Shown piece by piece: positions 5,404 through 6,528 of a stretch of DNA of 64,000 bases; within the stretch, counting starts at the first letter, position 1; each line of letters opens with the position of its first letter. The position numbers and the translations under genes are program-made. The stretch is from assembly GCF_009914755.1 (NCBI RefSeq), contig NC_060933.1; one strand, 5' to 3'. The notes beneath the pieces were generated by a model that was not told the origin of the DNA, made no database searches, and saw only the letters and a program-made list of their open reading frames with translations. Origin of the DNA: the human T2T-CHM13v2.0 reference genome, Homo sapiens.

Positions 5404-6528
5404 TGACACCGCCTTTGCAAAAATTATAACTGAGACAGTGAAGGAGATCTAACTTAGCCAACTCCATGTTTCTTTTAATCTCCAAGCTGTCCTTGTTTAT
5501 CCCTGGGCATAGGCTGAACTAACTTTGGGAAGAACTTAGTTTATAGTTTATAGTTTTATTGTTTTTTTTTAATTTTTTATTTTATTTTATTTTTTTCTGT
5601 GAACATTCAACTGAGATAAGCTGCTGTGTATTTGCATTCTGGAGAGAGGTAGATTTTGTTTGTTTGTTTGTTTGTTTGTTTGTTTGTTTTTGAGACAGAG
5701 TCTCTCTCTATTGCCCAGGCTGGAGCGCAGTGCCGTAATCTCAGCTCACTGCAAGCTCCACCTCCCGGGTTCACGCCATTCTCCTGCCTCAGCCTCCCGA
5801 GTAGCTGGGACTACAGGCACCCGCCACCATGCCCGGCTAATTTTTTGTATTTTTAGTAGAGACGGGGTTTCACCGTGTTAGCCAGGATGGTCTCGATCTT
5901 CTGACCTCATGATCTGCCCGCTTCGGCCTCCCCAAGTGCTGGGATTACAGGCTTGAGCCACTGCGCCCGGCCTATAGTTTATAGTTTTAAACAAAGATGA
6001 TAACAGCCCTTTCCCAAAACAAACCTCCTTCTCGACTGGGGACTAGACTGCCTTTGTGGGACTAACAAATTAGCCACAAGATTAGAAATTATGGTTTAGG
6101 AGTCATGCAGCTGGAGGCTACAAGATTCTACATGCCTTAAACTGCTCCTCAGATCAGTGATTGAGATATTTTGCAGACCCTGCACTTGATGGATCAGCTG
6201 GCACTACCCAGATTAATGAACTGGCTCATCTGATCTTGTGGCCCCCACCCAGGAACAGACTCAGCCCAAGAAGACAGCTTCGACTCCCTGTGATTTCATC
6301 CCTGACCAATCAGCACTCCTGGCTCACTGGTTTCCCCCTACCCACCAAATTGTCTTTAAAAACTCTGCTCTCCGAATGCTCAGGAAGACTTATTTGAGTA
6401 ATAAAAAAACTCTGGTCTCCCACACAGCCAGCTCTGTGTGAATTAGTCTTTCTCTATTGCAATTCCCCTGTCTTGATAAATTGGCTCTGTCTAGGCAGTG
6501 GGCAAGGTGAACCCATGGGGCAGTTACA
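5404..6528 (+). mobile_element. LTR8-type solo LTR (ERV1, HUERS-P1 group) copy 1, containing an AluY insertion
   Basis: tgacaccgcctttgcaaaaattataactgag...ggggcagttaca; 4-bp TSD TTCA (5400-5403 / 6529-6532); homologous to copies at 14859, 24367 and 26326. Confidence 0.85.
5558..5972 (-). mobile_element. AluY with a 57-bp non-Alu 3' extension and second A-rich tail
   Basis: AluY diagnostics (gcaagctcc, cacgccattc, ccgtgttagccagg); 16-bp TSD TATAGTTTATAGTTTT at 5542-5557 and 5973-5988. Confidence 0.88.

What the first reader, a model, noticed from the sequence alone, without database searches (positions are those of the whole stretch)
5542..5988. AluY with an apparent 3' transduction (57-bp unique tag plus second A tail inside one TSD)
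Seen on the - strand: AluY body, (AAAC)n tail, 57 bp of non-Alu sequence (5653-5597), a second A-rich tail (5596-5558). A perfect 16-bp TSD (TATAGTTTATAGTTTT) encloses the whole unit, and the other three LTR8 copies lack the 57 bp. The tag has no TTTT Pol III terminator on the transcribed strand. Known: Alu RNAs read into flanking DNA until a T run, but that flank is normally lost because priming occurs on the Alu A tail, so Alu transductions are rare. Inference: the tag barcodes the source Alu.
Basis: partly seen in the sequence, partly recalled or inferred. Interest (0 to 1): 0.75.

Follow-up and report, generated by a model that had tools for sequence, protein, structure and literature searches.

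The report
Alu carrying DNA from vanished source
This Alu copy carries 60 bases that match one other place in the genome, all inside one insertion footprint, likely because a parent Alu that is now missing from that donor site was transcribed past its end, which would be a rare case of an Alu moving neighbouring DNA.

Summary
In detail: a full-length AluY-type copy, an (AAAC)n tail, a non-Alu tag and a second A-rich tail lie in one perfect 16-17 bp TSD; three other host-element copies in the window are empty. The tag is 60 bp and has one other match in the genome, G000:C8:80715135-80715194, 57 of 60 identical. C8 is the donor: there the tag spans unique flank plus an older Y-RNA-fragment insertion with both of its repeats; the window has only one. 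An opposite-strand AluY starts 10 bp away, at the same TTTAAA. The copied stretch begins at that endonuclease-type site and fits best as ending at or just before the first TTTT (weak). Best reading (0.55): Pol III 3' transduction from a source Alu absent from this genome. Rivals: tag inserted later into the Alu tail (0.17), template-switch chimera (0.15), twin priming (0.06). Primate orthologues, not available here, could decide.

The parts
5973..5988 (-). 5' copy of the target-site duplication (16 bp; 17 with 5989), preceded by TTT
5692..5972 (-). Full-length AluY-type body starting at base 1; 19 differences from the majority of 61 Y-like copies in hand, 6 outside CpG columns (subfamily label rests on recalled diagnostic positions)
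5657..5691 (-). First tail, A5C(AAAC)7A
5641..5656 (-). Tag part 1: 16 nt of unique donor flank, starting at the AAA of the donor's TTT|AAA site
5627..5640 (-). Tag part 2: 14 nt that at the donor is the 5' copy of a 13-of-14 direct repeat (likely TSD of the older Y-fragment insertion); the second copy exists only at the donor
5620..5626 (-). Tag part 3: 7 nt between the repeat and the Y-RNA match, same at the donor
5597..5619 (-). Tag part 4: 23 nt matching nt 22-44 of the 113-nt Y RNA gene in L005 (21 of 23 here, 22 of 23 at the donor)
5571..5596 (-). Second tail, first part: A7(TAAAA)2TAAAAAA-type stretch ending TT, resembling the donor's A-rich stretch up to its first TTTT
   Evidence: weak end-point fit
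5558..5570 (-). Second tail, last part: A9CAAT, no clear donor match; read as untemplated A run (best model) or as the rest of the original Alu tail (rival)
5542..5557 (-). 3' copy of the target-site duplication

Best explanation
A single insertion holds a full-length Alu followed by 60 bases that match one distant donor site, and it most likely arose by 3' transduction from a source Alu that would once have sat at that site and is absent from this genome. Shown: one TSD, one donor match, direction donor to window, tag start at the donor's TTT|AAA, no same-strand Alu at the donor, an opposite-strand AluY 10 bp away. Inferred steps: (1) an AluY inserted on the tag strand at that TTTAAA, so the tag's first bases were its 3' TSD (head-to-head with the AluY now there, if both were ever on one chromosome); (2) Pol III read through its tail and about 82 nt of flank to the first TTTT; (3) the RNA ended in the A-rich tail of an old Y-fragment retrocopy with two AATAAA, so L1 ORF2p primed at this far end (on the genomic A runs or on added A's) instead of on the Alu tail; (4) the source allele never fixed or was later lost.
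For: Perfect 17-nt repeat and TTT|AAAA target, Alu starts at base 1. One donor, 57 of 60 identical. Direction: the 14-bp repeat has two copies at the donor, one in the window (0 of 1000 shuffles reached 14). Junction lies exactly at TTT|AAA, where a same-strand Alu's 3' TSD would begin. First T4 on the tag strand is at offsets 82-85, AATAAA at 67 and 72; the window tail fits best with 16-23 templated nt plus an A run, the T4 being tail nt 22-25, and shows TT there; TTTT terminators are usually shortened in daughter SINE copies (33% end at the last T; PMC8466645 passages). No young L1 or AluY on the tag strand in 10.4 kb upstream: 7 of 11 Alu hits are on that strand, all 75-82% to the window Alu; longest stop-free stretch 205 aa. 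Predicted spacer to the extant Alu, 10 bp plus a 14-20 bp TSD, falls in the 24-36 bp range where head-to-head pairs are in excess (3,464 pairs; PMC3215922 passages and supplement part 2).
Against: The defining element, the source Alu, is not there, and no sibling with the tag exists. The end-point fit is weak: only 2-4 points above a pure-A tail and 1-4 above read-through past the T4, with a plateau over n=16-23. AAA at the junction is equally the microhomology that a template switch or a 5'-truncated insertion would use. Both tails carry a C interruption, which the tail-insertion rival explains more simply. Halabian et al. confirmed 0 transductions in 118,489 full-length AluYs. Thousands of head-to-head pairs at this spacing survive, so instability does not by itself explain the loss. 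Two Alus at one hexamer is a coincidence of order 1% (my estimate).
Confidence: 0.55

Rival explanations
1. Two events: an ordinary AluY inserted first; later a 5'-truncated, A-tailed retrocopy of RNA from the donor locus (for example an orphan transduction from a lost L1) inserted into the Alu's A tail, with a second TSD made of tail sequence (A-run plus CAA) whose 5' copy then grew into (AAAC)n.
For: The sequence before the tag is A5(CAAA)n and the sequence after the TT is A9CAA, compatible with a hidden A-rich TSD. Alu tails and TSDs are known insertion targets (PMC3215922 passages). AATAAA signals are present at the donor.
Against: Needs an A-tailed RNA from the donor: no young L1 in 10.4 kb upstream and no other retrocopy of the tag. 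Downstream of the donor T4 the sequence is A-rich, not U/GU-rich (the need for such an element is recalled). Start at TTT|AAA beside an Alu head and end near the first T4 are both left to chance.
Confidence: 0.17
2. Chimera in one event: reverse transcription began on an A-tailed RNA from the donor's tag strand, copied 60 nt, and switched at the AAA to the tail of an unrelated Alu RNA (or the two RNAs were ligated first). The antisense AluY next to the junction may have stalled the enzyme or tethered an Alu RNA.
For: One TSD, full-length sense Alu 5' of a truncated partner, as in 452 Alu/LINE-1 chimeras, mostly sense and full-length (PMC13174262 passages); a U5 chimera with a single-copy 3' partner is described (PMC4476161 passages). 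AAA microhomology at the junction. Needs no lost Alu.
Against: Those chimeras are 61% AluJ and 33% AluS and their partner is L1 RNA; no transcript or L1 source is evident at the donor. It does not predict an end at the first T4.
Confidence: 0.15
3. Twin priming on one donor RNA that read antisense AluY, then tag, then A tail: the 5' part was inverted, so the donor's opposite-strand AluY became the sense Alu in the window, with 10 bp lost at the inversion.
For: Explains by itself why an opposite-strand AluY starts 10 bp from the junction. Distances agree: tag 3 of 60, Alu pair 14 of 232 non-CpG columns, Fisher p=1.0.
Against: The two Alus share 1 departure from the sample majority, in a CpG column, and 0 non-CpG ones. 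The donor Alu has G at column 218 and the window Alu C; G is in 2,939 genome matches against 51,856 for C and 378 for the control A, so the G was probably inherited. 5' microhomology is 1 nt. The inverted part would have to start exactly at Alu base 1. 5' inversion is rare in short trans-mobilised RNAs (1 of 5,554 Alus, 4 of 477 SVAs; PMC2912911 section 8).
Confidence: 0.06
4. The tag is only a decayed tail or a chance TSD, as in the candidates rejected by Halabian et al.
For: Most such candidates were decayed tails.
Against: The tag is complex sequence with a 57-of-60 match at one other locus (E 7.7e-20), and the TSD is 17 nt perfect with empty sites in 3 of 3 paralogues.
Confidence: 0.01

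Closest known systems
3' transduction by L1 and SVA
   Same: Element, own tail, unique flank, second tail, one TSD; the flank points to a donor site.
   Different: Here the element is an Alu, the end falls near a T4, the tag is 60 bp, and the donor site holds no source element.
Reported Alu transductions (Kojima's Alu monomer case; AluSx-WaluSat), known to me only as cited in bioRxiv 10.1101/2024.04.29.591526
   Same: Alu-derived element plus downstream sequence in one TSD.
   Different: Dimeric AluY-type copy, single-copy genomic tag with a mapped donor, no source element at the donor, no siblings.
Alu/LINE-1 and snRNA chimeric retrocopies (PMC13174262, PMC4476161)
   Same: Full-length sense Pol III RNA 5' of a truncated A-tailed partner inside one TSD.
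   Different: The partner is not L1 or a known mRNA but donor-site sequence that starts at an endonuclease-type site.
T+ SINE retroposition (B2, Dip, Ves, Can; PMC8466645, PMC9599045)
   Same: AATAAA, then a T4 at the donor; TT then an A run in the copy.
   Different: Alu is classed as T-minus; the signals here come from flank (an old Y-fragment tail); the extra beta and tau signals were not tested.
Head-to-head Alu pairs at 24-36 bp (PMC3215922)
   Same: The geometry that the inferred source would have had with the AluY now at the donor.
   Different: Only one member is present; the other is inferred from its daughter.

Membership tests
L1-mediated (TPRT) insertion | 7-20 bp TSD, TT|AAAA-type target, 3' A tail, empty site in homologues | tested here: met
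   17-nt perfect repeat, TTT|AAAA and A tail, 3 of 3 paralogues empty
Alu 3' transduction | Non-Alu sequence between the Alu tail and a second tail, inside the TSD | tested here: met
Alu 3' transduction | Tag maps to a donor locus, and the donor is the older copy | tested here: met
Alu 3' transduction | Same-orientation, same-subfamily source Alu directly 5' of the tag at the donor | tested here: not met
   Adjacent Alu is on the opposite strand; nearest same-strand Alu is about 1.2 kb away and 81% identical. Only this one genome was tested.
Alu 3' transduction | No T4 inside the tag; copy ends at the first downstream T4 | tested here: inconclusive
   No T4 in the tag; first T4 at offset 82-85; best fit ends 16-23 nt into the tail but by only 1-4 points
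Alu 3' transduction | Alu and tag arrived together (no orthologue with Alu alone) | not testable with these tools
   No primate genomes other than the window's own are held
Template-switch chimera | 3' partner is a known A-tailed RNA (L1, mRNA) with its own source | tested here: not met
   No young L1 in 10.4 kb upstream; donor annotation and RNA data not available, so an unannotated RNA is not excluded
Twin-priming 5' inversion | Inverted part is a copy of the donor's upstream sequence, with microhomology at the 5' junction | tested here: inconclusive
   0 shared non-CpG variants, column 218 differs, 1-nt microhomology; copying soon after the donor Alu arrived would leave none to share
AluY subfamily | Diagnostic positions against a curated consensus | tested here: inconclusive
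   Carries the majority state of 51,856 genome matches and groups with 61 Y-like copies; positions recalled, no Dfam or Repbase library on hand
T+ SINE polyadenylation | AATAAA, terminator, plus beta and tau signals, and A addition shown on RNA | not testable with these tools
   AATAAA and T4 present; the rest needs an assay

The most novel reading that the evidence does not exclude
A true AluY 3' transduction from a ghost source: an unfixed or lost AluY, head-to-head with the AluY now at the donor, whose Pol III read-through ended on a dead Y-RNA retrocopy's AATAAA-AATAAA-TTTT tail, was polyadenylated like a T+ SINE and was primed there. Alu transductions would then be missed genome-wide because searches demand an extant source and a tag over 70 nt, and such tags would map where lost active Alus once sat.
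Probability: 0.3. Interest if true: 0.75.

Novelty: new variant of a known kind. Interest (0 to 1): 0.52.

Why it matters
[quoted passage not shown] This locus has a real, mappable tag and would fail that search's source-element filter. If the best reading is right it marks the address of a once-active AluY that is gone from the reference and gives a simple screen for others: tag starts at an endonuclease site, ends at the first T4, no source present. If a rival is right it is still an unusual chimeric or nested retrocopy. No function is suggested: it lies in an LTR copy about 35 kb from SPIN1, outside the listed functional elements (hub table).

Tried and rejected
Rfam scans of window 5400-6200 and of the donor stretch did not detect the Y fragment; it was found by direct comparison with Y genes (1 of 5 genes compared matched; 0 of 2000 shuffles). 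No recurrent class of this Y fragment plus A6: 2 matches, the two loci themselves. No close sibling of the window Alu: best non-self 93% among 40 scored of 2,609 candidates; 31 genome matches share two of its G>A changes, which I judge chance-level without a direct control. Rejected: Alu inserted later at the 5' edge of a separate tag retrocopy (no second TSD around the Alu); donor as a truncated daughter of the window copy (second repeat only at the donor); Pol III read-through from the upstream same-strand Alu at the donor (wrong subfamily, T runs between). Two attempts to test head-to-head geometry by pattern were uninformative: one pattern was ill-chosen, the other returned mostly GC-rich non-Alu matches. 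Two papers sought by PMC id, on chimeric retrogenes and on Alu 3' flanks, were not held. Earlier findings of the scan were not open.

Full report
Observation. On the minus strand the window has an Alu body from 5972 to 5692 that starts at its first base, a tail A5C(AAAC)7A, a non-Alu stretch, a second A-rich tail and a perfect 17-nt direct repeat around all of it. The target reads TTT|AAAA. The tag occurs once in the window. The description is accurate.

Where the tag comes from. A search of the own genome with window 5594-5656 gave 2 matches of 2 candidates scored: itself and G000:C8:80715132-80715194, 95% identical, E 7.7e-20. A 26-nt pattern at up to 3 mismatches gave 4 matches: these two exactly and two at 3 mismatches, against 1 in the control. 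The shared stretch is 60 nt with 3 differences. C8 is probably chromosome 8, by the numbering that makes the window C9; I saw no annotation for it.

Anatomy of the donor. The last 23 nt of the tag match nt 22-44 of the 113-nt Y RNA gene in L005: 22 of 23 at the donor, 21 of 23 in the window, 0 of 2000 shuffles; the 4 other Y genes compared did not match. The label Y1 for that gene is recalled. At the donor a 14-bp repeat (13 of 14 alike) flanks 7 nt, the Y piece and a 74-nt A-rich stretch; 0 of 1000 shuffles reached that length. I read this as an older Y-fragment retrocopy with its TSD. The window copy holds 16 nt of unique donor flank and only the first repeat, so the direction is donor to window. 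This is inference from structure, and firm.

Directly 5' of the tag at the donor there is no same-strand Alu. Ten bases away begins an AluY-type copy on the other strand, with its own roughly 11-bp TSD, inserted at the same TTTAAA where the tag starts. In the 10.4 kb upstream on the tag strand 7 of 11 Alu hits in L002 and L069 are on that strand, all 75-82% identical to the window Alu, and the longest stop-free stretch is 205 aa, so no young L1 or AluY source is there. No sibling with the tag was found.

The two ends of the copied stretch. It starts at the AAA of TTT|AAA, where a same-strand Alu's 3' TSD would start. The first T4 on the tag strand lies at offsets 82-85, after AATAAA at 67 and 72. 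Modelling the window tail as n donor bases plus an A run, the best scores are a plateau at n=16-23 (the T4 is tail nt 22-25), 2-4 points above a pure-A tail and 1-4 above n of 30 or more, over six settings. This favours an end at or just before the T4 but only weakly, since A-rich tails slip. The window shows TT at that place; in B2 experiments only 33% of transcripts ended at the last T of TTTT, so daughters carry shortened terminators (PMC8466645, passages; same argument for dog SINEs in PMC9599045, passages).

Is the window Alu a copy of the donor's opposite-strand Alu? Twin priming would make it so. They differ at 31 of 282 columns, 14 of 232 outside CpG columns, in line with the tag's 3 of 60 (Fisher p=1.0), so the ages allow it. 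But against the majority of 61 Y-like copies (of 148 full-length Alus in hand; a biased sample, 30 loci chosen as nearest to the window Alu and 20 for the G variant) they share 1 departure, in a CpG column, and none of the 6 and 8 non-CpG ones. At column 218 the donor Alu has G: 2,939 genome matches against 51,856 with C and 378 with A; 11 of 17 full-length G rows were Y-like in the left arm. The G was probably inherited or converted, not a fresh change. 5' microhomology is 1 nt. Inversions are rare in Alu and SVA insertions (PMC2912911, passages and section 8). I give this 0.06.

Best reading (0.55). A source AluY sat on the tag strand at the TTTAAA, Pol III ran about 82 nt into the flank to the first T4, the RNA ended in an A-rich stretch and was primed there, and the source never fixed or was lost. 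If both Alus shared a chromosome their spacer would be 10 bp plus a TSD, about 24-30 bp for a TSD of 14-20 bp; head-to-head pairs are in excess at 24-36 bp (3,464 pairs among 806,880 full-length Alus) and the authors suspect an insertion preference (PMC3215922, passages and supplement part 2 of 4). The same number shows that such pairs often survive, so instability is not a sufficient reason for the loss. Source, transcription, priming and loss are all inferred; none is shown.

Rivals. A later insertion of an A-tailed donor RNA into the Alu tail (0.17) fits the C interruptions on both sides of the tag, which could hide an A-rich second TSD. A template-switch or ligation chimera (0.15) has a precedent in 452 Alu/LINE-1 chimeras, 94% AluJ or AluS (PMC13174262, passages) and in snRNA chimeras (PMC4476161, passages). 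Both need a donor RNA for which I found no source, and both leave the start site and the T4 to chance. The probabilities are my judgement, with about 0.07 left for other routes.

What is known. Halabian et al. (bioRxiv 10.1101/2024.04.29.591526, whole text read, supplements not seen) screened 118,489 full-length AluYs of this assembly, flagged 633 and confirmed none. They required a gap over 70 nt and a same-orientation source AluY; this locus fails the second and probably the first. Whether it is among their 633 I could not see. They cite two earlier cases, an Alu monomer and AluSx-WaluSat, which I did not read. A 2016 paper says Alu transductions had not been reported (PMC4862182, one passage). 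Searches for phrases on Alu transduction gave 8, 2 and 0 papers and I saw no mention of this locus in the listings or in what I read; most subscription papers are not covered. PMC3415434 (passages) added nothing decisive.

Verdict. Real and well-bounded; a copy of a mapped donor site inside an Alu insertion. It works like a 3' transduction but fails the membership test on the source element, so it is a candidate, not a confirmed case. New variant of a known kind; interest 0.52.

Noticed in passing
L002:1416-1547 (G000:C8, minus strand): An old short insertion: 23 nt of a Y RNA (nt 22-44) plus 7 extra nt and a 74-nt A-rich tail between 14-bp repeats; truncated at both ends, missed by Rfam, and no other such copy with an A6 tail in the genome apart from the window's.
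   Followed up: partly
window 24905-24940: The host-element copy near 24.9k has a short tandem duplication at the same site where the Alu inserted in the focal copy; the number of 7-bp units at this site differs among the four copies.
   Followed up: no
L002:1574-1870: The donor's AluY-type copy has G at column 218, a state found in 2,939 of about 55,000 matches and about 8 times as common as the control base; it may mark an early AluY or AluSc8-like group or gene conversion.
   Followed up: partly
L069:1657-1955: An older Alu with an expanded A run in its middle linker, directly after a short Alu 3' fragment with a long A tail.
   Followed up: no
L069:7800-9001: By eye an old, fragmented L1-like 3' stretch on the tag strand about 9-10 kb upstream of the donor; family not tested, no long ORF.
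   Followed up: no
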